From an uncultured Ignavibacteria bacterium (GTDB taxonomy: Bacteria > Zixibacteria > MSB-5A5 > SM23-73-2), in assembly GCA_964447175.1 (NCBI GenBank), contig CAYURP010000002.1, positions 937-64,936 of the forward strand: a stretch of 64,000 bases of DNA, read 5' to 3'. Both the position numbers and the translations under genes were made by a program. The notes beneath the pieces were generated by a model that did not search any database, was not told the DNA's origin, and saw nothing but the letters and a program-made list of their open reading frames with translations. Below are positions 2,795 through 60,710 of this stretch, in pieces; positions within the stretch are counted from its first letter, which is position 1; the number at the start of each line of letters is the position of its first letter.

Positions 2795-2842
2795 AAATCA
2801 AAATATATCCAAAACAAAGATGCATCGCAAGAGTAATTTTGC

Positions 2843-2866
2843 AGGGGAGCCCCTTGCGGGCTCCCG
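2843..2866. repeat. GC-rich hairpin (ggggagcccc-ttgc-gggctccc), member of a recurring hairpin family
   Basis: Perfect inverted repeat seen in the sequence. A near-identical hairpin recurs at 3034-3056. Confidence 0.5.
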
Positions 2867-3033
2867 TCAAGATTTCCCAACAGATGAAACAGATAATTTT
2901 GTAGTCGCTCGATTTATCGAGCCATTTTGTAATTTGCAGATTTATGCGCAGCACCTTGACGGTCGGCTAAAAGATGCACCATAAGTGGTGCAACTACAAT
3001 CCAGAAACAAAACCCAACCAGGAGAATTATGTA

Positions 3034-3062
3034 GGGGAGTCCCTTGTGGGCTCCCTTTTTTT
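3034..3062. terminator. hairpin ggggagtccc-ttgt-gggctccc followed by T7 tract (terminator-like)
   Basis: Stem-loop plus ttttttt on the + strand. A third hairpin, gggaggag-acaa-gctcctccc, follows at 3073-3096. Confidence 0.4.
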
Positions 3063-3159
3063 AATAAGAGAGCGGGAGGAGACAAGCTCCTCCCCTACGC
3101 TTAAGTCAGGCTCTTGAAATCGGCTTGCGTAATATTCTAATTCACAGGTAAATTTTACG

Positions 3160-3189
3160 TTGACAATTAAGGCTTTGGGATTATATTAT
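3160..3189 (+). promoter_or_regulatory. candidate sigma-70 promoter (TTGACA-N16-TATATT) upstream of the repeat-protein gene
   Basis: ttgaca at 3160-3165 and tatatt at 3182-3187. It lies about 225 nt upstream of the 3415 start, implying a long 5'UTR. Confidence 0.3.
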
Positions 3190-3414
3190 AAAAAGGGATG
3201 ATGTGAAAAAGAGATGAGATTTGCTTCTTGTCGGGATAGTCTTTAAAATTGAGGGGGAACTGAAAAAGGGGCAATTTGAGAAAGAGAGGAGACCTTCTTT
3301 TAATTTCAGCTTTTTCTGGAGGTGATGCCGATATAAATTTCTTCGGATTTACTCAGAAACAGACGATAATTAGCTAATAACCTTAAACTTTCTCAAAAGG
3401 AAAGGAGAAAACAA

Positions 3415-4890
3415 ATGAGAGCTCTGAGAATGTTGTTTTTTGTTGGGTTAGCTTTCATCTTTGTTTGCTCATCTTTGATTTATGCTGGTGTGCCCCAGAT
3501 GATTAATTATCAGGGGAAAATAACTACGCCTGCAGGGGCTTTAATAGATACAACTATCGGAATGATATTCACCATTTATGACGACAGCACTTCGGGTAAT
3601 ATCTTTTGGGCAGATACCTTAGGTTCAGTGTCGGTTGAAAAAGGTATGTTCAGCGTCCTGTTAGGGAGTGTGAATCCGATTCCGGACTCTGTTTTCGATG
3701 GAAATATCAGATATTTAGGTATCAAAGTGGGTGGCGATGCGGAGATGACTCCCAGGAAAGTTATTGCCAGCGTGGCTTATGCTTACCGGGCAGGCTCAGC
3801 AGATTTAAGTGCTCATAATCACTGGGGCGAAACCTGGGCTGGTGCAGACACAGGATTGATCCTTACCAGTACCGGCGTATCCAGAGACAACGGATCTGTT
3901 GGAGTCTCCGGTAGAGGCGTTAATTCAGGAGTGCATGGAAGTAGTAATACCGGCAGCGGTGTTTCCGGAAGTAGCCAGGATGGACGCGGGGTCAGTGGTT
4001 CCAGCAATAATGGCACCGGTGTCCAAGGAACTAGCCCCAATGGACAGGGAGTCGAAGGTGCAAGCACCTGGGGCACTGGGGTTTCAGGTACCAGCAACAA
4101 CGGCAATGGAGTGTCTGGTTCCAGCACTAACAGTAATGGAGTGCAAGGGTCCAGCGGTAGCAACACCGGCTCCGGAGTAAGAGGAACCAACAGCTCTCCT
4201 GAGGGAGATGGAGTGAGTGGCCAAGCTGATGGGGGTGACGGCGTTCATGGCGAAAGCAATACTGGTGATGGTGTCTCGGGTGGCAGCAATTCGGGGATTG
4301 GCGTTCACGGTGCAAGTGCTGAGGGCACCGGAGTTTCGGGTGAAAGCGTAAACGGCACAGGTGTTCATGCAAGCTCAGCCTTCGGAACCGCCCTGGTGGT
4401 TGATGGCTCCAGTATATTTAACTGTAACGCTCAGTTCAACTGTAATGTAACAGTCGCAGGAACTCTTGAGGTGAAAAAACTCACAGCATGGGAAATCGAC
4501 CCTATCATCCTTGAGTTATTCAAAGTAGACCCATCTCAGGTTTACCAAAAAGGAGATGTTCTGGTTATCGATCCTGAAAGTGATACTTACAAGCTTTGTG
4601 ATGCTGCAAACGACACAAAGGTTTCCGGTGTTGTCTGGAATGCAGACCCGAACGAGAATGGTGAGGTTCCAGTTGTGATTCTGGGAGCTAAGACTCCATC
4701 CAATACCGTTTACATAAAAGTAGATGTCAGCTATGCTACCATTCAGAGAGGTGATTTGCTAACATCATCTCCAACCCGAGGACATGCTATGAAGGCGACC
4801 GAGCCCAAGCCTGGATCCATAATAGGCAAGGCGCTTGAACCATTTAACTCAGGGAAAGGTCTTATAAAAGTCTTTGTCAACTTGCACTAA
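3415..4890 (+). CDS. secreted repeat protein: conserved N-terminal domain + ~15 Gly-rich decapeptide repeats (G-x-G-V-x-G-x-S-x-x) + C-terminal beta-rich domain
   Basis: 491 aa; signal peptide; RBS aaggag 6 nt upstream. The N-terminal ~110 aa are about 85% identical to the next gene. Residues 159-324 are a decapeptide array. Confidence 0.75.
   Translation: MRALRMLFFVGLAFIFVCSSLIYAGVPQMINYQGKITTPAGALIDTTIGMIFTIYDDSTSGNIFWADTLGSVSVEKGMFSVLLGSVNPIPDSVFDGNIRYLGIKVGGDAEMTPRKVIASVAYAYRAGSADLSAHNHWGETWAGADTGLILTSTGVSRDNGSVGVSGRGVNSGVHGSSNTGSGVSGSSQDGRGVSGSSNNGTGVQGTSPNGQGVEGASTWGTGVSGTSNNGNGVSGSSTNSNGVQGSSGSNTGSGVRGTNSSPEGDGVSGQADGGDGVHGESNTGDGVSGGSNSGIGVHGASAEGTGVSGESVNGTGVHASSAFGTALVVDGSSIFNCNAQFNCNVTVAGTLEVKKLTAWEIDPIILELFKVDPSQVYQKGDVLVIDPESDTYKLCDAANDTKVSGVVWNADPNENGEVPVVILGAKTPSNTVYIKVDVSYATIQRGDLLTSSPTRGHAMKATEPKPGSIIGKALEPFNSGKGLIKVFVNLH
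3889..4386 (+). repeat. intragenic tandem 30-nt (10-aa) Gly/Ser/Val repeat array
   Basis: SGVHGSSNTG / SGVSGSSQDG / RGVSGSSNNG ... about 15 units. It generates several spurious antisense ORFs. Confidence 0.85.
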
Positions 4891-4954: not shown

Positions 4955-6952
4955 ATGAGATGTAGAAGTGTAGTTTTTTGGATGATAGGAGTTTTAATAC
5001 TCCTACTTTGCTCTATTTCATCTGCTGGCGTGCCACAGATGATAAATTATCAGGGGAAGGTAACTACGCCCTCAGGTGCTTTAATAGATACGACTATCGG
5101 AATGATATTCACCATTTATGATGACAGCACTACGGGTAATACCCTGTGGGCAGATACCTTGAGTTCGGTTGCGGTTCAAAAAGGGATTTTCAACGTTTTG
5201 CTGGGCAGTGGAAATCCCATTCCCGATTCGGTTTTTGATGGCAATATTAGATATTTAGGTACCAAGGTGGGTAGCGATGCGGAGATGACTCCCAGGAAAG
5301 CGATGGTGAGTGTAGCTTATGCCTACCGTGCCGGAACTGCAGACGGAGGTGGCGGAGGAAGCTGTGGCTGGGTAGATGATGGTGTGGTTGTCAGGCTGGA
5401 GACCAACACAGATAATGTGGGAATCGGAACCACCAGTCCGGGAGCGAATCTGGACATCGTTTCCACAAATCCGAATCTTCGTGTGGGCACTTCATCTGGT
5501 TCCCCGGTTATTACTCTAGATAAAGCTTCAGGCTTTTGGGGATATCTGGAATTCAGAGATGCCGGAGCATCCAGGTGGCAAGCAGGCGTAACAAATAGCA
5601 ACGATTATTACATCCTGAACTGGCCATCTTCTAAATATGTTTTCTATGCCAATAGCGCAGGTAATGTGGGCATCGGAACCACCAGTCCCGATGAGAGATT
5701 ACATATTGTTGGAAACATCAAGATGGTTGATGGAAATCAAGCAGCAGGCTATATCTTGACTTCTGATGCAAATGGTGTGGGAACTTGGCAGGCAGCATCG
5801 GGTGGTATTGGTGGTAGTGGTGCAACTAATTATCTCCCGAAATTCACAGGCTCTACCACCCTTGGCAACTCTGTGTTCTACGAAAACGGAGGGAAAATAG
5901 GTCTTGGAACCACCAGCCCGGGTGCAGATCTGGACATTGTTTCCACAAATCCGAATCTCAGGCTGAGCACAACATCTGGTTCTCCAGTCATCACCCTGGA
6001 TAAAGCTTCTGGCTACACATCCATACTCGAATTCCGTGAGGGTGGAGCTTCCAAGTGGCAGGCGGGAGTATCGACTACCAACGATTATTACATCTTAAAC
6101 TGGCCTGCTTCCAAATATGTTTTCTTTGCTAACAGCGCAGGTGACGTTGGTATCGGGACCACCAGTCCAAGTGAGAAACTTACTGTTAATGGTGACATCG
6201 ATATGATACAGGGCCAATCACGGATTCACGGCACAGGAGAGATAAGTTTTGACTGGTCTGCAGGAAGTACCTACGACAATCCCAGTCTTCATGGTTTTGA
6301 ATCTAAAGATGAAGCAGGAACCTGGGGAGATGAAATCAGGATAAATAGTATGAATGATATAATCAACACGGTTGATGCAAATGATAATGACGCAACGTCT
6401 TATTTCAAGGTTCAACATCACTCAACCGGAGATGGTGAGGATCTTTTCTGGGTGCGTTCAAGTGATGGTTATGCATATCACAAAAGCAGGTTGGGAATAG
6501 GCACCACCAGTCCGGGAGTTGATCTGGACATCGTTTCCACAAACCCGAATCTCAGACTGAGCACCACATCTGGTTCCCCGGTTATTACTCTGGATAAAGC
6601 CACAGGCTTTTGGGGGTACCTGGAATTCCGAGATGCTGGATCATCCAAGTGGCAGGCGGGTGTAACAAGTGGTAACGATTATTACATCCTGAACTGGCCT
6701 GCTTCCAGATATGTTTTCTATGCTAATAGTGCTGGTAATGTAGGACTCGGAACCACAAGTCCCACCGGCCCGTTGGACGTTAATGGCAATGATATCCGTA
6801 TTCGCAGCTCCCAAACGCCGGCATCTTCTACAGCAGATGGTTACACAGGAGAGATTGCCTGGGATGCCAGCTACATTTATATTTGCACCTCTGGAGATGG
6901 TCCGGGCGGTGGAACAGATAGCTGGAAAAGAGCAGCTTTAAGTACATGGTAA
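4955..6952 (+). CDS. secreted repeat protein paralog: same N-terminal domain + three ~90-aa repeats (IGTTSP...LDIVSTNPNLR...DYYILNWP) + tail-fibre-like C-terminus
   Basis: 665 aa; signal peptide; RBS aaaggag. The C-terminus GEIAWDASYIYICTSG...SWKRAALSTW resembles the terminal motif of many bacterial and phage tail-fibre-domain proteins. This is recognition from memory, not a search. Confidence 0.75.
   Translation: MRCRSVVFWMIGVLILLLCSISSAGVPQMINYQGKVTTPSGALIDTTIGMIFTIYDDSTTGNTLWADTLSSVAVQKGIFNVLLGSGNPIPDSVFDGNIRYLGTKVGSDAEMTPRKAMVSVAYAYRAGTADGGGGGSCGWVDDGVVVRLETNTDNVGIGTTSPGANLDIVSTNPNLRVGTSSGSPVITLDKASGFWGYLEFRDAGASRWQAGVTNSNDYYILNWPSSKYVFYANSAGNVGIGTTSPDERLHIVGNIKMVDGNQAAGYILTSDANGVGTWQAASGGIGGSGATNYLPKFTGSTTLGNSVFYENGGKIGLGTTSPGADLDIVSTNPNLRLSTTSGSPVITLDKASGYTSILEFREGGASKWQAGVSTTNDYYILNWPASKYVFFANSAGDVGIGTTSPSEKLTVNGDIDMIQGQSRIHGTGEISFDWSAGSTYDNPSLHGFESKDEAGTWGDEIRINSMNDIINTVDANDNDATSYFKVQHHSTGDGEDLFWVRSSDGYAYHKSRLGIGTTSPGVDLDIVSTNPNLRLSTTSGSPVITLDKATGFWGYLEFRDAGSSKWQAGVTSGNDYYILNWPASRYVFYANSAGNVGLGTTSPTGPLDVNGNDIRIRSSQTPASSTADGYTGEIAWDASYIYICTSGDGPGGGTDSWKRAALSTW
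5420..6785 (+). repeat. three long intragenic direct repeats (~270-290 nt each; approx 5420-5700, 5900-6185, 6494-6785)
   Basis: Near-identical DNA stretches, e.g. ccaccagtccgggagcgaatctggacatcgtttccacaaatccgaatct recurring. Protein repeats start at aa 156, 316 and 514. Confidence 0.8.
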
Positions 6953-24389: not shown

Positions 24390-24430
24390 GGTGGACCATT
24401 ATAAAAGGGCGAGGATTTAAAAAGTTAATA

Positions 24431-24517
24431 AAAAAGGTGGCTCCCTTGCCAGGGTAGAGACGGTGGGAATTTAGACAAGGGAGCCTAATTGGGGCTTTAT
24501 GAAGTCAAATCTATAAT
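24431..24517 (+). repeat. copy 1 of ~88-nt structured element (candidate sRNA/regulatory RNA)
   Basis: aaaaaggtggctcccttgcc...aagggagcc...ggggctttatgaagtcaaa. An internal inverted repeat ggctcccttgc/gcaagggagcc forms a long stem. About 80% identical to copy 2. Confidence 0.45.
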
Positions 24518-24677
24518 ATGCTGAACCTTATTTTTTGTCAAGAAAAAATTATACTCGTTTAATATTTTACCAGAGGAATATCAACTCAAGAATTATTAGA
24601 GTCGCATATCAGACCTCGATTCAGGAGAATCTTCAAGAGAAGATCTGGCAATAGAACAACAATATAAAAAAGTATAT

Positions 24678-24765
24678 AAAAAGAGGTGGCTCCCTTGCTA
24701 GGGTAGAGACGCGGGGCTTTTCGCAAGGGAGCCGGTTGGGGCTTTATGAAGTCAAACTAATTATA
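24678..24765 (+). repeat. copy 2 of ~88-nt structured element
   Basis: aaaaagaggtggctcccttgctagggtagagacgcggggcttttcgcaagggagccggttggggctttatgaagtcaaa. Same stem and conserved 3' block as copy 1. Confidence 0.45.
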
Positions 24766-25032: not shown

Positions 25033-25105
<73 letters not shown>

Positions 25106-25537
25106 CAACTTATTCTTTTATCGACCCGATATAAATTTCTTAAACAAAATAAAATATTAAAAATCAGTGTCAAGAGAAAATTGGACTCTTCATATATTTT
25201 AATTGTTACTGGCAGCAACTGAGGACACAAAAGAGTACAACCTTCCATTAAAAAGAGAAGATTTCAATAAATCATAGCCTTAAGTAGAAGGTATCAGGAT
25301 TCGGTTAGACACAATTTGAAGCATATCTATTTGGAGGAGGCCACTACAACAAATGGTTCCTTGGGATAAGGCGGCATTTGTGGAATGCTCACATATTGAA
25401 CATTAACCCTTTTTGGGTATTGCCGATAAACAAAGCAACAGGAGGAGGTGCGTAGTATATTACTGTGAATTTAACTACTTAGTATACCAATATTAAAAAC
25501 CTAAAATTTACGAAAGGAGGTGAAAGGGGTGAAAAAC

Positions 25538-45934: not shown

Positions 45935-46028
45935 TCGTAGGAGGGGCTCTCCCGCCTCTACGTGGGTCTGCCTATGGCATGACCAGTCCCGCTGAGAATA
46001 TAGCCCGAGCAAGGGTGCCTGGGCTACG
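45935..46028. repeat. dispersed hairpin-repeat element (family R1: ...ctgcctatggcatgaccag...gcaagggtgcctgggctacg)
   Basis: Same element found inverted at 60588-60651. Partial copies at 49455-49495 and 60676-60709. Confidence 0.6.
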
Positions 46029-46081: not shown

Positions 46082-48394
46082 CTACCACCAGGACCAGATC
46101 TCTACCCTTAGGTAGTGGATTATTCTTCTGGTTAAGACATAAATCAAACTTCGTTTTCCGCAGTAGATTTTGGCATGGCCGGTCATCCCGGGCCTTAATA
46201 GGTGCTCGGCGTTTGCTACTTTGCTGGTTATTCGGAATACTTTCCTTGAACCAATGCTTTCGGATTGATGGGAGATTCTGGAAACCTCTCCAAAAAATGA
46301 TTCAAAGGGATAGCTCCTGACTTTGGTTTTGACCTTTAATCCGGGCTGGACCACGTCCATGTCTTTTTCAGAAACATAAATCAAAACCCTTACGGTATCG
46401 ATGTTTTTGATGCTCAGGAAGTTGCTGTCTGTTTTCACTGTGGTGACAATCCCGGAGATGGGGGTTTTTATCTCGGATGCCTGTATCTGATTCTCCAATA
46501 ACTCTGCCTCTGCCTTGAATTGTTCCACCTCTGCCTGTGCCATTTTAAGTTCCTCAGGCTTTGAGCCAGCTTCCAGTATCTTGAGATCGTTTTCTGCAAT
46601 ATCCTTTTCCTTAATCAGAACAGAGTGGTCGGTGGTGATTTTTTCTAATCCCTCCTCGCTTATCAGATTCTGCTCTGAAAGCTTCTTTGCCCTATCCAGC
46701 TCAGATTTTTTGGATTTGAGTTTAAGTTCCGCTTGAGTTAACTTGTCTTTAGCATTCTGGATTTCCTCCGGGTCGGGCCAGTTTTCTAAAAGCTGGTAAT
46801 TGGCTTCTGCTTGTTTGATTCTGGCGTTTATCTCCTTTAGCTGGGTTTTATACTGGGTGGAGCTAAATGAGGCTATTACCTGTCCCGGCTTCACCATCTC
46901 CCCCTCTTTTACCCTGGTCTCCAGATTGACCACGGCATAGTCCGAGGAGATCAATTTCAAAAAATTGGTCTCCTTTTTCTCCTGGTTTTTTGCCAGAAAA
47001 ATATTCTCCTGAATATACCCGTCAGTATGGGTAATCAAGGTATAGGATTCCAGGGGTGCGATCTCGCAGTTGCTGGAGACCCTTAACTGAATCGGGAAAA
47101 GGAAAAGAAAAAGAAGAATTGCAGCAATTATGATTGACCATCGGATGATCTTTTTTGGCTTCAAAATATCCTCTTTTTTTACCAGAAAAAAGCTAACAAA
47201 CCCAGCCAGAAAAACCTGAGCCGGATGTTTAAAGATAAGATAGACTAAAACCAAAAACAAGACAAATCCATACCCCTGAAACTGGTGCACTAAGAACTTC
47301 TCGACTCTGATAAAAATATAACCCAGAAGCAAGACAGAATAGATCAGAGACAAACTTCCATAAAAGGAGTAAATCTTTTTCTCCTTGGGCGTGATATTAA
47401 CTTCCTGCACTTCCAACTTCAGGATATTCTTTTTGAAAACCGAATTCAGATAACCGAACGCTTTTTTTCTGAGGTTGGGTATCTCCAGGTAGTCTGACAG
47501 AAGATAGTAGGCATCGAATTTCATCAGGGGATTGAAGTTAAAAAGCAAAACTACACCGGAGGTCAACATCACCACGAAAAGGAAACTATTGAGCTGGGTT
47601 TGGATATCGGTGATTCTCCAGAGAATGGTTGCTGATGCCCAGAGGAAAATGTGAATGTAAATTCCGGCAAAGGAGACCCAGAGCTTTTTCGATTTCTCTT
47701 TAAAAAGCCAGGCATCGGACACGTTGGTGAAAAAAGCAGGCTGAAGATATATCAGCAAAAATCCCATCTCATGCACATCTCCACCATAGTGTTTACAGGT
47801 TACGGCATGCCCCAGCTCGTGAATTATCCCGATAAAAAAGATGGCAATCCAGAGCTTGAAGATGGTGGTGATGCGATAAAGCCCCCGAAGAGAGTATCCC
47901 AGATCGCCCCAGTTAAAGATTGTTATGAGGAAGCCTAAAACTATCACCAAAATCGAGAAGATGAAAAACCCGGGCGTGAATAGGAATCTAACCTTTTTGG
48001 TGAACCTATCCAGAAACCTGTTGGGATCAAAGGCTTTGATCTTTAAAAAGAAAATCCTTCTGAGGATGTTTTTCTTTTTCTGAGCCTGGTATTGTAATTT
48101 TGAAAGCTCCCTTTGAGATATTTCCCCTTCTAAAAAGCCTGCCTTTTCCAATTTTTCAATGAATCTATCTAAGGTTTCAGAGGATACTATGACATTCAGT
48201 TCCTGATGCAGCTTTTGTATAATCTTTTCTTTGGGTGTTTTGCCGTCGAGATATTTTATGATAAAGTGTTCTGGTTCACCCACACGGAAGAATCTTTTGG
48301 TGATAGGATCTTTTATCACATAGTAGGTTTTGTTCTCGAATACCTGCTGGCTTGTGATCAGCTTTTCCCTTATTTTGGGATAATTACCTGTCAT
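46082..48394 (-). CDS. membrane HExxH zinc-metalloprotease-like domain fused to HlyD-family periplasmic adaptor (membrane-fusion protein) domain
   Basis: The ORF runs to a GTG at 48466. The first ATG with a plausible context is MTGNYPKIRE (48394), so the start is uncertain. A multi-TM region contains GIIHELGHAVTCKHYGGDVHEMGF. The C-terminal half has an HlyD-like coiled-coil, biotin-lipoyl-like and beta-barrel segments (GEMVKPGQVIASFSS...; RVLIYVSEKDMDVVQPGLKV). Confidence 0.6.
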   Translation of the reverse strand: MTGNYPKIREKLITSQQVFENKTYYVIKDPITKRFFRVGEPEHFIIKYLDGKTPKEKIIQKLHQELNVIVSSETLDRFIEKLEKAGFLEGEISQRELSKLQYQAQKKKNILRRIFFLKIKAFDPNRFLDRFTKKVRFLFTPGFFIFSILVIVLGFLITIFNWGDLGYSLRGLYRITTIFKLWIAIFFIGIIHELGHAVTCKHYGGDVHEMGFLLIYLQPAFFTNVSDAWLFKEKSKKLWVSFAGIYIHIFLWASATILWRITDIQTQLNSFLFVVMLTSGVVLLFNFNPLMKFDAYYLLSDYLEIPNLRKKAFGYLNSVFKKNILKLEVQEVNITPKEKKIYSFYGSLSLIYSVLLLGYIFIRVEKFLVHQFQGYGFVLFLVLVYLIFKHPAQVFLAGFVSFFLVKKEDILKPKKIIRWSIIIAAILLFLFLFPIQLRVSSNCEIAPLESYTLITHTDGYIQENIFLAKNQEKKETNFLKLISSDYAVVNLETRVKEGEMVKPGQVIASFSSTQYKTQLKEINARIKQAEANYQLLENWPDPEEIQNAKDKLTQAELKLKSKKSELDRAKKLSEQNLISEEGLEKITTDHSVLIKEKDIAENDLKILEAGSKPEELKMAQAEVEQFKAEAELLENQIQASEIKTPISGIVTTVKTDSNFLSIKNIDTVRVLIYVSEKDMDVVQPGLKVKTKVRSYPFESFFGEVSRISHQSESIGSRKVFRITSKVANAEHLLRPGMTGHAKIYCGKRSLIYVLTRRIIHYLRVEIWSWW

Positions 48395-48466
48395 TTTTCT
48401 GAGAACGATTTTTTTATAATCTACCAAAACGTAATAAAATAAGTCAAGTGAAATCTGAATTAGCAC

Positions 48467-49700
48467 CCTTCGGGCGAAGATAAACTTCGCCCCTACGCGT
48501 TAATTTTATAACCTCTCCCTAACCCTCTCCTTTTAAAGGAGAGGGAATAGGTGAGGATAAACTCTTTTTAGGGAGTAGCCTGGAGTCTTCTGATCCAAGG
48601 TAATGGTGTCCGGGTTGTGAAACCTGTCATTGCGGGTGATAGCGAATCAATCTTCAATTAAGGATGTATGATTCTGTCGGGTCGGGGGACCCGACAGACA
48701 CAGAATTCCCACCTTGCCTCAATGTGGGATTACAGTTTTAACCCCTCCTGACCTCCCCTTATCAGGGGAGGAATATTTTGAGTCCCCCTGACAAGGGGGA
48801 AACGGGGGTTTATTTCGTCCTTGCCATAACTCCGGCCACATTCTCCAAATCCCCAATCAACTCTTTCTTGTCTTTCATATAACTTTGCCTTGATTCTTCA
48901 TTTTCTATTTTCTGGACAATATCATTCACGATTTTGAAAGCCAATTCAAACTCCTTATAACCTGTTTCATAATCTTTGCTCTGAATATGTAATTTTCCCA
49001 AAAAATGATGAATTCTCCACAAAGTTTCCGGCTTTCCTATTATCTTTGGCAATTTCTTTTGATTTTTTCAAATTCACCTAACCTCTGACAAAAGGTAGAC
49101 CAGTGGCCTCGGGCACTGGTCAAAATATACTTTTTCAAGGGTCTCATTCATCGGGACACGAAAAACCAATTTGATGAATCAAACCGCTACGAGAAACCCC
49201 TGTAGATATCACACCTGTCCCGTTCTTGGCGGGATTTATGCGACCCGATGAACTGTTTTAATAACCCCTCCTGACCTCCCCTTATCAGGGGAGGAACATT
49301 TTGAGTCCCCCTGACAAGGGGGGATACGGGGGTTTATTGCGTCTTCAACAGAAACCCTCCCACCCCTCCAAATCCTCCATCAACTCTTTCTTGTCTTTCA
49401 TATAACTTTGCCTTAAAGGGTACACCAGTAGCCTCTGCCACTGGTCAAAATATACTCATTAGCCCAGGCAGGGGTGCTTAGGCTACGAGACTTTTCTTTC
49501 CGAACCTCTCCCTAACCCTCTCCTTTTGAAGGAGAGGGAATGGGTGAGGATGTACTCTTTTCAGCGGGTAGCCTGGAGTCTTCTGATCCAAGGTAATGGT
49601 GTCCGGGTCAACGAAACTCTTTTACGTTGAAATAATGTTATCGTAGGGACATACCTTTAGGTCTGTCCGTGACACCAAAAAAACGGACAGGTCTGAAGAC
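48467..49700. repeat. repeat-dense region made of duplicated modules (A: 48511-48615/49504-49608; B: 48737-48814/49259-49337; C: 48845-48895/49368-49415; D: 49095-49131/49417-49454)
   Basis: Each module occurs twice with more than 85% identity. Module B is a pair of GC hairpins (ctcccct-tatc-aggggag; tccccct-gaca-aggggga) plus a T-run. The region is bounded by the direct repeat gggcgaagRtaaacttcgcccctacgcg at 48470-48500 and 50577-50603. Confidence 0.7.
48810..49052 (-). pseudogene. TPR-like gene fragment embedded in the repeat region (probable remnant)
   Basis: The 80-aa ORF contains TPR-like helices. Its 5' end (module C) is duplicated at 49368-49415 without a continuing ORF. Confidence 0.3.
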
Positions 49701-49805
49701 CTGTCCCTACATTCCTTCATTCTTTTCAAGAAGAAATCCTCTTGACACCTGATGGTTACTTTCTAAGTTATTGAGTCGTACTTTTCTTGAACGTAGAACT
49801 TAACA

Positions 49806-50543
49806 ATGGATAAAAGCAGAGCAAGTTTTAATTCAGAATTTATCAAATCGCCGGAATACCTGAAAGATTTCTTCTCAAGATTGGCTCCGTCTTATAAGAA
49901 ATTCAACAGAATAGCCAGCCTTTTTCTGGATGGATACTGGAGAGACCGGGTGGTAAGCTTTGCCCGAACCGGAATGAGTGTATTAGACCTCTGCACCGGA
50001 ACAGGTGATCTGGCATTTAAGATAGCAAGAAAGATTGGATGGGGTGGAAAGGTTGTGGGCATCGATTTCAGCCCGGAGATGTTGACCCTTGCCAAAGAGA
50101 AAAAAGAGAAGCTGAGCTTGGATTCGAGAATTGATTTTCGGTTGTCCCGGGCAGAGGATTTACCATTTGAGTCCGAAAGTTTCGATCTTGTGGTCTCGGC
50201 TTTTGCCATGCGCAATGTAAGGGCGAATTTGGAAAAAGTCTTAAAAGAGATTTTCAGGGTGCTTAAACCCGGCGGGCAAACAGCGATTTTAGAATTCTCC
50301 AGACCGAAATTTCTCATCTTAAAACTCTTGCACTTTCTTTATTTGAAAACAGTTATACCATTAGATGAGAAAATAGTCTTTGGATCAAAATGGAGCTCTG
50401 ATTATTTAACTGAATCCGTTTTACATTTTTTCAGTCCAAAGGATTTTTGCCACAAGCTTTCCCAGGCAGGTTTTTCAAAGGTGAGATATATCCCCTTGAA
50501 TTTTGGCATTGTTGTGATTCACCGGGCGAGGAAGTGTATCTAA
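49806..50543 (+). CDS. ubiE: class I SAM-dependent methyltransferase of the UbiE/MenG family (demethylmenaquinone/ubiquinone methyltransferase)
   Basis: 245 aa. SAM motif VLDLCTGTGDLAFKIA, VVGIDFSPEMLTLAKEK, and RVLKPGG...ILEFSRP, which closely parallels E. coli UbiE RVLKPGGRLLVLEFSKP. Confidence 0.7.
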   Translation: MDKSRASFNSEFIKSPEYLKDFFSRLAPSYKKFNRIASLFLDGYWRDRVVSFARTGMSVLDLCTGTGDLAFKIARKIGWGGKVVGIDFSPEMLTLAKEKKEKLSLDSRIDFRLSRAEDLPFESESFDLVVSAFAMRNVRANLEKVLKEIFRVLKPGGQTAILEFSRPKFLILKLLHFLYLKTVIPLDEKIVFGSKWSSDYLTESVLHFFSPKDFCHKLSQAGFSKVRYIPLNFGIVVIHRARKCI

Positions 50544-50718
50544 TAATACTTTTATGAACATGGTTGGGATCAATGGGCGAAGGTAAACTTCGCCCCTACG
50601 CGATGCTTTTTCCGTTTTAAATATTTTCATTTACTTATATAATTAAAAAAGCGAGGATGATTACATCCTCGCTTAGCAGATTTACTCGTAGGGTTGGAGT
50701 TTATCTCCACCCAATAAA

Positions 50719-51246
50719 CTATTGTTCTCGCAGGGATTGTAAGACCTTGTTGGTTATGTCCATTTCGTCTTTGGCGTATAAAATATCTCCACCGGCTGTA
50801 TCTAAAATCAGGGTGTAGCTATCCCTTAAAGCTATCAGGTTGATGGCAGCGTTTATCTTATCGATCAAGGGCTTGGAGAGTTCGTATTCCCTTTGAGCTG
50901 CCTCGCCGTCAGCCCCTAAAATCTTTCGGGCAAATTCCTCGTATTCCAGTTGTTTCTCCAGTATCTTCTGCTCCCTTTCCCTTCTTTTATCCTCACTTAA
51001 AAGCATCCTCTGGGTATTGAGCTCATCCTGCATATTGATGATTTCCTGCTGTAATGAATCTGCATAACCCTGCCAAATAGCCAGCTGCTGATCGAATTTG
51101 GCTTTAGCGTCGGCATATTCTTTATATTCCAATTTCAGACGATTGGTGTCCACGTATCCGATCTTGATCTGCTGGCTAAAAACGCTGGAAGCTATAAGCA
51201 AAAAAGCTAAAAAGAAAAGCATAACCGAGAATCTCTTTACAGACAT
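50719..51246 (-). CDS. skp: OmpH/Skp-family periplasmic chaperone
   Basis: Start set at MSVKRF (RBS aggagg 6 nt upstream). Signal peptide, then a long coiled-coil-rich region with a conserved core (IGYVD...ILDTAGGDILYA). Confidence 0.7.
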   Translation of the reverse strand: MSVKRFSVMLFFLAFLLIASSVFSQQIKIGYVDTNRLKLEYKEYADAKAKFDQQLAIWQGYADSLQQEIINMQDELNTQRMLLSEDKRREREQKILEKQLEYEEFARKILGADGEAAQREYELSKPLIDKINAAINLIALRDSYTLILDTAGGDILYAKDEMDITNKVLQSLREQ

Positions 51247-59230: not shown

Positions 59231-60540
59231 TGGAGAAATTACTGGAAATGGCTAAAAAGGTATGCGACAAGTCAGAGGTTTATTCGGTGGAATATACCAA
59301 CAATCACGTTTCATTTGAAAATGCCAAACTTCAGAACATAGATAACAAGTTTCAGTCAGGGTTAAGTCTGAGAATAATCAAAGACGGTAAGCTGGGATTT
59401 GCCTACACCAGGAATCTGATAAATCGGGAAGAGCTTGTGCAGAATGCCCTTGAGTCTTTGAAAGGTGGAGTGGAGGCAGAGTATGATTTTCCTTTGACCA
59501 ATGATCTTCCCAAGCTCAATACCTATGATTCATCTATGGAAAAGCTTTCAGGCAGGGATATGGTGAATGAGTGTGCTCGGGTGTGCGATCACTTAAAATC
59601 CAATACGGACGGTGAGATCGAGATGAATTCACTTGCCGTCACAGATAAGTTACGCATCATAAACACCGAGGGAACCGACATCACCGGGCAAAGCACCACC
59701 TACGCCATGTTCGGAGCTATAACCTATCCCGGAGTCGGCACAGGCATCTTGAGATTTTTCCAGGATAAAAAATTCGATAAGTTTCCTGACGACACAGCAA
59801 ACGATATGATCCAGCTTTACCAGGCATCCTCCAAAGTTGTGGAAATCAAAGGGGGCAAGATGAAGGTGATGTTTATGCCCAACAGCTGGATTACGCTCAC
59901 CTGGAGAATCTCAAGCGGCACAAGCTCCAAATCGGTTTACGAGAAAATCTCGCCTGTGGCAGATAAGGTGGGAAAGAAGATATTCGATGAAAAACTCACC
60001 ATCTGTGACGATCCCTTAGACGATAAATTCCCCGGAGCCCGGGCATTCGATGATGAGGGAGTCAAATGCAGGCCCTTAACCCTGGTGGAAAACGGGGTAT
60101 TGAAAAGCTTTTACTATGATCTGGACTACGCCAAAAAGATGAAAGCTAAATCCACCGGACACGGGTACAGAACGTCAATGTGGGGAGGGGATTCCATTAC
60201 AATGAAGCCCATACCAGCCCTTTCTCACTTAAGAGTAAAAACCGGCAATAAGTCCTTCTCGGATTTGTTAAAATCAATGGACAAAGGCATCATAATCGAA
60301 GGAGCATTAGGACCCCACAGTGGAAACATACCCAATGGAGATTACTCAGTTGGTATCAGTCCGGGATTGTATGTGGAGAACGGCGAGATAGTAGGCCGGG
60401 TAAAGGACGTAATGGCAGCAGGCAATATCTACGAGACCTTGAAAAACGTCGTGGATATCGGCGACACCCTATATCCCACCTGGTTTGGTGCCTGGGTGCC
60501 GGCAATAGTATTCGACAACGTAAGCGTCGCCGCGAAGTAG
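59227..60540 (+). CDS. pmbA: PmbA/TldE-family protein (TldD partner)
   Basis: 437 aa. PmbA_TldD fold with no HExxxH. A 4-nt overlap with tldD suggests a coupled heterodimer pair. Confidence 0.75.
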   Translation: MMEKLLEMAKKVCDKSEVYSVEYTNNHVSFENAKLQNIDNKFQSGLSLRIIKDGKLGFAYTRNLINREELVQNALESLKGGVEAEYDFPLTNDLPKLNTYDSSMEKLSGRDMVNECARVCDHLKSNTDGEIEMNSLAVTDKLRIINTEGTDITGQSTTYAMFGAITYPGVGTGILRFFQDKKFDKFPDDTANDMIQLYQASSKVVEIKGGKMKVMFMPNSWITLTWRISSGTSSKSVYEKISPVADKVGKKIFDEKLTICDDPLDDKFPGARAFDDEGVKCRPLTLVENGVLKSFYYDLDYAKKMKAKSTGHGYRTSMWGGDSITMKPIPALSHLRVKTGNKSFSDLLKSMDKGIIIEGALGPHSGNIPNGDYSVGISPGLYVENGEIVGRVKDVMAAGNIYETLKNVVDIGDTLYPTWFGAWVPAIVFDNVSVAAK

Positions 60541-60585: not shown

Positions 60586-60710
60586 AGCCCGTAGGCTGGG
60601 CACCCTTGCCCAGCCGTAGATTCGGAAGGGCTGGTCATGCCATAGGCAGATCCCTGCCAACGAAAGTAAAGACATATATCCCGTGTAGGTCGGGCACCCC
60701 TGCCCGACCA
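60586..60710. repeat. inverted copy plus partial copy of dispersed hairpin-repeat family R1
   Basis: cccgtaggctgggcacccttgcccagccgtag...ggctggtcatgccataggcagatc is the reverse complement of 45968-46028. A second partial copy is gtaggtcgggcacccctgcccgacc. Confidence 0.6.

What the first reader, a model, noticed from the sequence alone, without database searches (positions are those of the whole stretch)
48467..50603. Repeat-dense, degraded segment; direct repeats bracket it together with ubiE
Four sequence modules each occur twice within 48500-49640. They include a TPR-like gene fragment and a second copy of only its 5' end, so this is a duplicated and then decayed region. The 28-nt hairpin gggcgaagRtaaacttcgcccctacgcg occurs at both 48470-48500 and 50577-50603, flanking the repeats and the methyltransferase gene. 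This could mark past mobile-element or recombination activity.
Basis: seen in the sequence. Interest (0 to 1): 0.5.

Follow-up and report, generated by a model that had tools for sequence, protein, structure and literature searches.

The report
REP hairpin cluster with dead gene fragment
The repeats are real, but they form an ordinary cluster of REP-type selfish DNA hairpins plus a twice-copied dead tail of a kinase gene, sitting between two conserved promoters of a Zixibacteria-like genome; they are not a mobile unit that carries ubiE.

Summary
The 28-nt hairpin is a GTAG-tagged repetitive extragenic palindrome (REP). Both of its variants flank, base for base, a REP-associated tyrosine transposase (RAYT) gene on a contig carrying the Zixibacteria RBG-1 RAYT protein, and copies lie at unrelated sites in other Zixibacteria MAGs. 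The copy after ubiE is at the same position in all three relative lineages with DNA, so it is old and fixed. The gene order M50/HlyD-like, ubiE, OmpH, PhzF is conserved, so the two hairpins do not bracket a mobile ubiE unit.

The variable part is the 1277-nt spacer 48464-49740 between the two conserved divergent promoters; the whole gene-to-gene gap is about 510-540 nt in two relatives against about 1340-1410 nt here. The spacer holds at least eight GTAG-tagged hairpins, a compound hairpin module (twice), and a dead 3' end of a large kinase-AAA-TPR gene with that gene's own 3' flank. A second, further deleted copy keeps only the last 16 codons, which is the 3' end of the gene, not the 5' end.

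No transposase remnant lies in the window. This is a new member of a known kind (REP/BIME-type cluster); interest is low to moderate.

The parts
48395..48463 (-). Conserved 5' leader and promoter of the M50/HlyD-like gene. The likely true start is the ATG at 48394, not the mechanical GTG at 48466. A promoter-like site lies at 48447-48418.
   Evidence: 92-95% identical to relatives up to 48463, where homology stops. The L001 gene call starts at the equivalent of 48394. Promoter scan.
48472..48499 (-). REP-a1: GTAG-tagged REP hairpin. On the minus strand it reads CGCGTAGGGGCGAAG-TTTAT-CTTCGCCC.
   Evidence: DNA fold -9.9 kcal/mol, z -3.4. Identical 28-mer lies downstream of the RAYT gene in L129. 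Relatives carry a different REP type in the opposite orientation at this site.
48510..48615 (+). Module B1: compound hairpin H1 (48512-48556), a spacer, and a degenerate GTAG-tagged hairpin (about 48575-48600).
   Evidence: H1 -15.8 kcal/mol, z -5.0; the tail hairpin is not stable. H1-like elements occur at unrelated loci of other Zixibacteria and Ignavibacteria MAGs.
48662..48709 (.). Module C hairpin (TTCTGTCGGGTC-GGGG-GACCCGACAGA). It is part of the native 3' flank of the kinase gene family.
   Evidence: -14.3 kcal/mol, z -4.7. By eye, a related sequence lies in the 3' flank of the full-length kinase gene in L134.
48739..48812 (-). Double hairpin of module D, copy 1 (CCTCCCCT-TATC-AGGGGAGG and TCCCCCT-GACA-AGGGGGA). 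It is the native 3' flank of the kinase gene.
   Evidence: The same hairpins follow the stop codon of full-length kinase genes in L014 and L134.
48810..49052 (-). Relic 1: an 80-aa ORF that corresponds to the last 76 residues of a protein of about 1270 aa with Pkinase, AAA_16 and TPR domains. A dead 3' gene fragment.
   Evidence: 68% identity to P0122 residues 1193-1268, ending at the same C-terminus. 72% identity to the 1392-aa gene in L134. No Pfam hit of its own.
49090..49131 (+). Module F1: GTAG-tagged hairpin (GGTAG-ACCAGTG-GCCTCGGG-CACTGGT). It lies just upstream of the truncation point of relic 1.
   Evidence: -10 kcal/mol, z -5.0.
49262..49414 (-). Module D, copy 2: the double hairpin plus only the last 16 codons of the kinase gene (49366-49414).
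   Evidence: 88% identical to copy 1 with one indel. Its KELMEDLE matches the full-length relatives better than copy 1's KELIGDLE.
49415..49456 (+). Module F2: second copy of F, fused directly to the 49-nt gene end. Its GTAG head has mutated to GTAC.
49462..49488 (-). Module H: degenerate GTAG-tagged hairpin. Ancestral, also present in relative L010.
   Evidence: 89% match to L010 5152-5178, where the hairpin is perfect (GTAGCCCAGGCA-CCCT-TGCCTGGG). Fold.
49503..49608 (+). Module B2: second copy of B. This is the copy collinear with relative L010.
   Evidence: 92% identical to L010 5242-5331, against 89% for B1.
49643..49710 (.). Module I: inverted REP dimer with the GTAG heads outward, REPIN-like (GTAGGGACA..). 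The minus-strand arm is followed by T7.
   Evidence: I3; -17.4 kcal/mol, z -4.8. L010 has a single arm, on the other side of B.
49741..49805 (+). Conserved ubiE promoter and leader (TTGACA at 49743).
   Evidence: 86-88% identical in L007-L013.
49806..50543 (+). ubiE/menG-type methyltransferase gene, intact and syntenic.
   Evidence: Pfam PF01209, E 2e-53. Relatives at 78-83% aa identity keep the same gene order.
50575..50602 (-). REP-a2: second copy of the 28-nt REP, fixed at the 3' end of ubiE.
   Evidence: Present at the same position in L001/L003, L007 and L010. Identical 28-mer lies upstream of the RAYT gene in L129.
50649..50674 (-). Canonical intrinsic terminator shared by the convergent ubiE and ompH genes. 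It lies between the two REPs.
   Evidence: 11-pair stem followed by TTTTTT. Conserved in relatives.
50688..50712 (+). REP-b (GTAGGGTTGGAG-TTTAT-CTCCACCC). Together with REP-a2 it forms a dimer with the GTAG heads inward around the terminator.
   Evidence: 96% match to the REP that sits next to the M50 promoter in L001. Conserved in relatives.

Best explanation
The segment is the variable spacer between two conserved divergent promoters, that of an M50/HlyD-like gene and that of ubiE. The genome is Zixibacteria-like. The spacer has been filled by extragenic palindromic repeats.

The 28-nt hairpin is a REP: a GTAG tetranucleotide followed by an 8-bp G+C-rich stem and a 5-nt loop. REPs are the non-autonomous partners of a REP-associated tyrosine transposase (RAYT, also called TnpA-REP), a HUH/Y1 enzyme. 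By analogy with the E. coli enzyme, it binds the folded single-stranded hairpin and cuts next to GTAG.

The copy after ubiE, a normal terminator and a second REP type form an old, fixed dimer at the ubiE/ompH junction. The copy next to the M50 promoter is lineage-specific.

Between the promoters lie further GTAG hairpins of several sequence classes. There is also a second kind of compound hairpin (module B, twice). A collinear piece of about 440 nt comes from the 3' end and 3' flank of a Ser/Thr-kinase-AAA-TPR gene. Part of that piece was copied again, and the second copy lost 198 nt internally.

Shown here: the identity of the repeats, their dispersal, their association with RAYT genes in relatives, their extragenic position, stem covariation, conserved gene order and an extra block relative to relatives.

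Inferred: mobilisation by a RAYT. Also inferred is that the block grew by ectopic or unequal recombination among dispersed repeats, followed by decay.
For: Identity of the 28-nt hairpin:
- Both variants flank a RAYT gene in L129, a contig encoding the protein of Zixibacteria RBG-1 gene RBG1_1C00001G1148. That protein scores 115 bits on NCBIfam NF047646, cutoff 80.
- The scan pattern hit at least 114 loci, including six RBG-1 loci and twelve loci of five other Zixibacteria MAGs. The GCGAAG stem variant of the window lies in five RBG-1 loci and in other Zixibacteria MAGs.
- RAYT genes lie in 5 of the 114 REP loci. In L112 the gene has REP dimers on both sides.
- Three variable stem pairs are 96-98% Watson-Crick, against 60-83% expected if independent.

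REP character within the window:
- Ten GTAGG-tagged hairpins in the window against 1.2 expected, maximum 4.
- 14 of 14 REP-like elements are extragenic in a window that is about 85% coding.

Comparison with relatives:
- Gene order is conserved. The gene-to-gene gap is 543 and 507 nt in two relatives against 1339 nt (ORF call) here.
- REP-a2 is orthologous in three relative lineages.
- The upstream site carries a different REP in relatives.

Gene relic and literature:
- The relic equals the C-terminus of Pkinase-AAA_16-TPR proteins. Its 3' hairpins follow the full-length genes in L014 and L134.
- Published work describes REP clusters that reiterate REPs together with segments of flanking DNA (PMC3733652).
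Against: - The window's own genome could not be searched beyond 64 kb. The copy number of REP-a and the presence of a RAYT in this genome are unknown, and no RAYT lies in the window.
- Module F and the double hairpin of module D were not found as dispersed repeats in the loci held.
- The order of events that built the block cannot be reconstructed. The B, D and F copies differ by 7-12%, about as much as B2 differs from B in a relative. They could therefore be independent insertions rather than a local duplication.
- Module B is better conserved between genomes (92%) than the neighbouring coding DNA (82-86%). That could hint at a function.
Confidence: 0.8

Rival explanations
1. The two 28-nt direct repeats are the ends of a mobile or recombined cassette that carries the repeat block and ubiE.
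For: Two nearly identical 28-mers in the same orientation lie 2.1 kb apart and occur nowhere else in the window.
Against: - The order M50-ubiE-OmpH-PhzF is conserved in four relative lineages.
- The downstream copy is present at the same site in relatives that lack the block.
- The same 28-mers are dispersed in other genomes.
- There is no transposase or remnant of one, and no terminal inverted repeats.
Confidence: 0.03
2. The hairpins are ordinary functional RNA signals (terminators, mRNA stabilisers or an sRNA), and the repeats reflect selection for them rather than mobile DNA.
For: - REP-a2 has been kept after ubiE across lineages with wobble-compatible changes.
- The minus-strand arm of module I and one hairpin of module D score as terminator-like.
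- B2 is 92% identical to B in L010.
- REPs are known to act also as RNA elements (PMC3733652).
Against: - REP-a is not followed by a T-run and is not called as a terminator; a canonical terminator sits 50 nt further on.
- REP-a1 lies upstream of a promoter.
- The GTAG head, the link to RAYT genes and dispersal at unrelated loci are not features of terminators.
- No Rfam family reaches its threshold.
- Module B is absent upstream of ubiE in L007, and the L001 lineage has only its GTAG tail hairpin, without H1.
Confidence: 0.1
3. The block is an assembly artefact: a chimeric join or a collapse and expansion of repeats in a metagenome-assembled genome.
For: - Relatives' contigs break near these repeats: L007 starts 145 nt before ubiE and L010 ends 156 nt after it.
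- The source is probably a metagenome assembly.
Against: - The copies differ by 7-12%, whereas assembly duplications are usually identical.
- An independent JGI record holds the identical 70-aa end of the ORF.
- Both edges of the block join conserved promoters in the right order.
Confidence: 0.04
4. The 80-aa ORF is a living small gene, a stand-alone TPR-like C-terminal domain, rather than a relic.
For: - The reading frame is intact over 76 homologous codons and ends at the ancestral stop.
- Several short proteins of 85-210 aa match the same domain.
Against: - It covers only the last 6% of the parent architecture.
- It starts with TTG; by eye I saw no ribosome-binding site, which was not tested.
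- No Pfam family is hit.
- It has a single identical relative in 5.8 billion proteins by word search.
- The second copy is clearly decayed.
- Many of the short matches may be genes cut off at contig ends.
Confidence: 0.05

Closest known systems
GTAG-tagged REP elements with their RAYT/TnpA-REP transposase (REPtrons, REPINs). Sources: Nunvar 2010 PMC2817692; Bertels and Rainey PMC3337134; Messing 2012 PMC3479197; Di Nocera 2013 PMC3733652.
   Same: - A 5' GTAG head followed by a short G+C-rich imperfect palindrome.
- Strictly extragenic position.
- Singletons, dimers with the heads inward or outward, and clusters.
- The cognate RAYT gene is flanked by the same REPs in a relative.
- Compensatory variation in the stem.
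   Different: - The host is Zixibacteria-like. A full-text search found no paper that mentions both Zixibacteria and repetitive extragenic palindromes.
- Several stem classes coexist within 2.3 kb.
- Copy number and a RAYT in this particular genome are not shown.
BIMEs and large REP clusters that reiterate REPs together with pieces of flanking DNA (E. coli BIMEs; the clusters described in PMC3733652).
   Same: - A mosaic of REPs in alternating orientations with spacers.
- Reiterated flanking DNA.
- Located between genes.
- Differs between related genomes.
   Different: - There is no regular Y/Z alternation or fixed linker types as in E. coli BIMEs.
- The reiterated flanking DNA here is a recognisable gene 3' end.
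- A second, non-GTAG compound hairpin family is interleaved.
MITEs and composite transposons.
   Same: Short non-coding repeats in intergenic DNA, with presence and absence differences between relatives.
   Different: Terminal inverted repeats, target-site duplications and a transposase of a cut-and-paste family are all absent. ubiE is not mobile.

Membership tests
REP / REPIN-RAYT system | Palindrome of 20-40 nt that folds into a stem-loop. | tested here: met
   8-bp stem and 5-nt loop, -9.6 to -9.9 kcal/mol as DNA, z about -3.5. Stem covariation across 121 instances.
REP / REPIN-RAYT system | Conserved GTAG tetranucleotide next to the stem. | tested here: met
   CGCGTAGGGG precedes the stem in both copies. 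There are 10 GTAGG-tagged hairpins in the window against 1.2 expected.
REP / REPIN-RAYT system | Extragenic location. | tested here: met
   14 of 14 elements lie outside ORFs of at least 120 aa, with about 85% of the window coding.
REP / REPIN-RAYT system | Many dispersed copies in one genome. | tested here: inconclusive
   Only 2 exact-type copies occur in the 64 kb available. The source genome could not be retrieved.
REP / REPIN-RAYT system | A cognate RAYT gene flanked by the same REPs (REPtron). | tested here: met
   Met in relatives, not in this genome. In L129 the RAYT has the exact 28-mers on both sides, and the protein passes the NF047646 cutoff. L112 shows the same layout. No RAYT lies in the window.
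REP / REPIN-RAYT system | The RAYT binds and cuts the single-stranded REP at GTAG. | not testable with these tools
   Known for E. coli TnpA-REP (PMC3479197, and PMC3733652). It needs biochemistry with the Zixibacterial enzyme.
Composite transposon or mobile cassette carrying ubiE | A transposase gene or its remnant inside or at the ends. | tested here: not met
   No ORF of more than 80 aa lies in 48467-49805. The only ORF with homologues is the kinase tail. tblastn with RAYTs finds nothing in the window.
Composite transposon or mobile cassette carrying ubiE | The bracketed unit is present or absent as a whole among relatives. | tested here: not met
   ubiE, its downstream REP and the neighbouring genes are conserved in place. 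Only the spacer 48464-49740 varies.
Intrinsic terminator | G+C-rich hairpin followed directly by a T-run. | tested here: not met
   The 28-nt hairpins are not called as terminators. The terminator is the separate hairpin at 50649-50674.
MITE | Terminal inverted repeats and a target-site duplication. | tested here: not met
   The ends of modules B and D-F are not inverted repeats of each other, and the flanks show no duplicated target.
Ser/Thr kinase-AAA_16-TPR gene family (for the ORF) | Full architecture of Pkinase, AAA_16 and TPR domains. | tested here: not met
   Only the last 76 residues are present, so it is a fragment and not a member gene.

The most novel reading that the evidence does not exclude
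This REP type (GTAGGGG, an 8-bp stem and a TTYAY loop) is a single family shared almost base for base by very distant phyla: Zixibacteria, Patescibacteria, Ignavibacteria, Chloroflexia, Planctomycetia, Actinobacteria and some Gammaproteobacteria. Meanwhile the RAYTs compared here (Ignavibacteria, Patescibacteria, Zixibacteria) have diverged to about 50% identity. That would imply either repeated cross-phylum transfer of REPtrons or an unusually rigid enzyme-substrate constraint. In addition, REP hairpins of type F sit at both truncation junctions of the kinase relic. This would mean that REP or RAYT activity itself truncates genes and copies gene fragments.
Probability: 0.15. Interest if true: 0.5.

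Novelty: new member of a known kind. Interest (0 to 1): 0.25.

Why it matters
It shows that a candidate-phylum genome carries a typical REP/RAYT system. It also shows that a conspicuous 'degraded repeat' region is the normal product of such a system, not a sign that ubiE was acquired.

Practical consequences:
- The 80-aa ORF should be annotated as a pseudogene fragment.
- The start of the M50/HlyD-like gene should be moved to 48394.
- Contig breaks in related assemblies coincide with these repeats.

The near identity of this REP type across phyla may be worth a dedicated survey.

Tried and rejected
- Exact look-ups of the window's ubiE, of P0002 and of P0001 in the assembly index found nothing. 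The source contig and strain variants could not be fetched.
- The closest relative, the P0006 contig, gave a gene table but no DNA.
- A search for remnants of the 205-aa gene that sits between M50 and ubiE in the L001 lineage found none in the window.
- Rfam gave only two tRNAs at gathering thresholds. The permissive search of 48300-50800 gave six matches, all well below their gathering scores.
- Word-seeded protein search of the ORF gave only one identical fragment. The exhaustive search was needed to find the parent family.
- Module F and the unique stretches C and G gave no significant hits in the 128 loci then held.
- The metagenome scan with the ORF returned one locus only.
- I considered a simple tandem duplication and rejected it, because the three repeat pairs have different spacings (993, 523 and 325 nt).
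- I considered Campbell-type integration at module B. It does not fit well, because module H, which is ancestral, lies between the insert and B2.
- I did not scan the viral collection, because nothing pointed to a phage.
Full report

Yes. Within 48000-51200 the repeat finder and a self-BLAST give four repeat pairs.
- Module B: 106 nt at 48510-48615 and 49503-49608, 99/106 identical.
- Module D: a collinear block of 153 nt at 48739-48891 and 49262-49414, 88% identical with one indel.
- Module F: 42 nt at 49090-49131 and 49415-49456, 37/42 identical.
- The 28-nt hairpin: 48472-48499 and 50575-50602, 27/28 identical.

Pattern searches of the whole 64-kb window, with up to 3 mismatches, find each module only at these places. 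The chance expectation is 0.00-0.01. ubiE at 49806-50543 is confirmed by Pfam PF01209 at E 2e-53.

**2. What is the 28-nt hairpin?**

On the minus strand it reads CGCGTAGGGG-CGAAG-TTTAT-CTTCG-CCC. That is a GTAG tetranucleotide followed by an 8-bp G+C-rich stem and a 5-nt loop. As single-stranded DNA it folds at -9.6 to -9.9 kcal/mol, z about -3.5.

The window holds more hairpins of the same design with other stems.
- 3031(+) and 3098(-)
- 49643(+) and 49710(-)
- 50688(+)
- 60591(+) and 60685(+)
- Degenerate ones at 49462-49488(-) and in the tails of module B
- Module F (GGTAG-ACCAGTG...)

A strict scan finds 10 GTAGG-tagged hairpins. Markov simulations of the window give 1.2 on average and at most 4. 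All 14 REP-like elements lie outside ORFs of at least 120 aa, although about 85% of the window is coding.

I scanned 185,579 species genomes with a degenerate pattern, GTAGGGKYRRRGTTYAYCTYYRCCC. The pattern also allowed non-complementary stems.
- The hits come from Chloroflexia, Zixibacteria (six loci of RBG-1 and five other MAGs), Ignavibacteria, Planctomycetia, Actinobacteria, Runella, Rheinheimera, Patescibacteria and others.
- Each genome has its own dominant stem variant.
- The three freely variable stem pairs are Watson-Crick in 96-98% of 121 instances. If the two sides were independent, 60-83% would be expected.
- The window's GCGAAG stem variant occurs at unrelated sites in five RBG-1 loci and in other Zixibacteria MAGs (the 28-mer itself is exact in L032 and L064). 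It is often paired with a second hairpin, GGGTGGAGRCAAGCTCCACCCCTACG.

**3. Link to a transposase**

Five of the 114 pattern loci encode a Y1/HUH protein.
- The L040 and L112 proteins score above the NCBIfam cutoff for 'REP-associated tyrosine transposase' (NF047646; 101 and 124 bits, cutoff 80).
- The L077 protein scores below that cutoff (68 bits).
- The L057 and L118 proteins were identified by tblastn only.

In L112 (Patescibacteria) the gene is flanked on both sides by REP dimers whose REP differs from the window's by 2 of 28 bases.

A protein search with the Ignavibacteria RAYT found four Zixibacterial RAYTs. All four pass the NF047646 cutoff. One of them, P0187, is the product of RBG-1 gene RBG1_1C00001G1148. 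On a contig encoding that protein (L129):
- GGGCGAAGGTAAACTTCGCCCCTACGCG lies 23 nt before the start codon. This is exactly window 50575-50602.
- GGGCGAAGATAAACTTCGCCCCTACGCG lies about 50 nt after the stop codon. This is exactly window 48472-48499.

This is the REPtron layout that defines REP/RAYT systems (PMC2817692, PMC3733652, PMC6006769). No RAYT lies in the window itself. The rest of the source genome could not be fetched.

**4. Comparison with relatives**

ubiE homologues at 78-83% aa identity come from Zixibacteria-like contigs. Four lineages keep the order M50/HlyD-like(-), ubiE(+), OmpH(-), PhzF(+), a 415-aa gene.

The distance between the M50 gene and ubiE differs.
- 543 nt in the P0006 contig.
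- 507 nt in L010.
- 394 nt plus a 205-aa gene in L001.
- 1339 nt here.

No trace of the 205-aa gene remains in the window.

Homology to relatives runs at 92-95% up to 48463 and then stops. The conserved part contains a promoter-like site at 48447-48418. It also contains the probable true start codon, ATG at 48394, which matches the L001 gene call; the mechanical GTG start at 48466 is therefore unlikely. Homology resumes at 49741, the ubiE promoter with TTGACA at 49743. The variable block is therefore 48464-49740.

Downstream of ubiE three elements are conserved at the same positions in L001/L003, L007 and L010: REP-a2, a canonical terminator (50649-50674) and REP-b (50688-50712).
- L001 carries a wobble-compatible change in the stem.
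- L007 and L010 carry a decayed head, CTAT instead of CTAC.
- In L007 and L010 the ubiE reading frame runs on into the REP, and the stop codon lies in the REP loop.

This copy is therefore old and fixed. At the M50 side, relatives carry a different REP type. In L001 it is GTAGGGGTGGAGTTTATCTCCACCC in the opposite orientation; in L010 it has an insertion in the loop. That site turns over. So the two 28-mers are not the ends of one unit.

**5. What fills the spacer?**

From left to right:
- REP-a1
- B1
- a hairpin, C
- the double hairpin of D
- an 80-aa ORF on the minus strand
- F1
- a stretch of 130 nt, G
- D copy 2, holding the hairpins and only 49 nt of the ORF
- F2, fused directly to that 49-nt piece
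- H
- B2
- the inverted REP dimer I

About 73% of the block lies in these named modules.

The modules H, B2 and I and the promoter have counterparts in L010, but B and I are in the opposite order there. L010 also has only one arm of I. The block B1 to F2, about 950 nt, is extra.

The H1 hairpin of module B recurs next to REPs at unrelated loci of other Zixibacteria and Ignavibacteria MAGs (L023, L073, L059, L102). Module B is therefore a dispersed element too. A composite of REP-b, a spacer and GGGTAGCCTGGGGTC... sits upstream of ubiE in L001 and L010 but downstream of ubiE in L007. That is direct evidence that such pieces move.

**6. The gene fragment**

A word-seeded search found only an identical 70-aa fragment in a JGI record. 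The exhaustive search found 38 relatives. The best is P0122, 1268 aa, which aligns at residues 1193-1268 with 68% identity and ends at the same C-terminus. P0122 and its relatives have Pkinase, AAA_16 and TPR domains. The ORF itself has no Pfam hit.

The same two hairpins follow the stop codon in two loci that encode full-length genes: L014 (GCA_022866245.1) and L134 (a 1392-aa gene, 72% identity). By eye, L134 also carries a hairpin resembling module C further on. Window 48616-49052 is thus collinear with the 3' end and 3' flank of such a gene.

The fragment is a relic. Copy 2 reads KELMEDLE like the full-length genes, while copy 1 reads KELIGDLE. Neither copy is therefore derived from the present form of the other. 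No full-length paralogue lies in the window.

**7. How it most likely works, and what is not known**

Shown:
- The hairpins belong to a REP family tied to RAYT genes.
- They are extragenic, structured and dispersed.
- The block is lineage-specific and lies between intact promoters.

Inferred from the E. coli system (PMC3479197; PMC3733652):
- The RAYT recognises the folded single strand and cuts at GTAG.
- This spreads REPs and generates dimers and clusters.

[quoted passage not shown] That is what is seen here.

The order of events is open. The different spacings (993, 523 and 325 nt) exclude a simple tandem duplication. The 7-12% divergence between copies is similar to the divergence of B2 from B in L010. 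The copies may therefore be old duplicates or separate insertions. A REP-type hairpin (F) sits next to both truncation points. This is suggestive, but F was not found elsewhere.

**8. Rivals**

- A ubiE cassette is contradicted by conserved gene order.
- Plain terminators are contradicted by the missing T-run, the GTAG head and the RAYT link. An added RNA role for REP-a2 or module I remains possible.
- Rfam gives nothing.
- An assembly artefact is unlikely, because the copies differ and an independent record holds the ORF.
- A living small gene is unlikely.

**9. Verdict**

This is a REP/BIME-type cluster with a decayed, partly reiterated gene tail, in a phylum where I found no paper that mentions REPs. 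It is a new member of a known kind. Interest is low to moderate. The point most worth following up is the near identity of this REP type across distant phyla.

Noticed in passing
L112:480-1260; L129:1330-2075; loci L015-L128: The same REP type (GTAGGGG, 8-bp stem, TTYAY loop) occurs nearly base for base in very distant phyla. Each genome has its own compensated stem variant. The RAYTs compared (Ignavibacteria, Patescibacteria, Zixibacteria) are only about 50% identical.
   Followed up: partly
window 46082-48466: The mechanical ORF of the M50/HlyD-like gene starts at GTG 48466. Relatives and the conserved promoter indicate that the true start is ATG 48394, giving about 770 aa instead of 794.
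   Followed up: partly
L007:860-930; L010:6142-6200: In two relative lineages ubiE is 7 codons longer (252 aa). It reads into the REP, and its stop codon lies in the REP loop.
   Followed up: partly
window 48512-48556, 49505-49549, 48739-48812, 49262-49335; L023:1491-1590; L073; L059; L102: This is a second repeat family without a GTAG head. An outer stem (AACCTCNCC...GGNGAGGTT) encloses one or two inner CCTCTCC/GGAGAGG hairpins. It is usually found next to REPs. The double hairpin after the kinase gene has the same design.
   Followed up: partly
window 3031-3109: An inverted REP dimer with the GTAG heads outward (GTAGGGGAGTCCC... and ...GGGAGGAGACAAGCTCCTCCCCTAC) lies in the intergenic gap 2795-3414.
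   Followed up: no
window 60591-60709: Two GTAGG-tagged hairpins of a further stem class (..GGGCA-CCCY-TGCCC..) lie in direct orientation, 94 nt apart, after the gene that ends at 60540. Module H at 49462-49488 belongs to the same class.
   Followed up: no
window 3483-3782 / 5023-5322 and 5418-6763: There is a 300-nt repeat (84% identical) between two neighbouring genes, and three copies of a 272-nt unit inside the 665-aa ORF. These look like paralogous genes with internal domain repeats.
   Followed up: no
window 24419-24765: Two direct repeat pairs (54 nt and 30 nt, each copy about 248 nt from its partner, 80-87% identical) lie in the large gap next to tRNA-Phe (25033-25106).
   Followed up: no
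L001:1653-2270: The L001 lineage has a 205-aa ORF (hydrophobic N-terminus with a cysteine, lipoprotein-like by eye) between the M50 gene and ubiE. It has left no trace in the window, so this spacer is a hot spot for gain and loss.
   Followed up: partly
window 45937-45965: GTAGGAGGGGCTCTCCCGCC resembles the element GTAGGCGGGGCTCTCCCACC found in the M50-ubiE spacer of L010. It may be another dispersed REP-like element downstream of the M50 gene.
   Followed up: no
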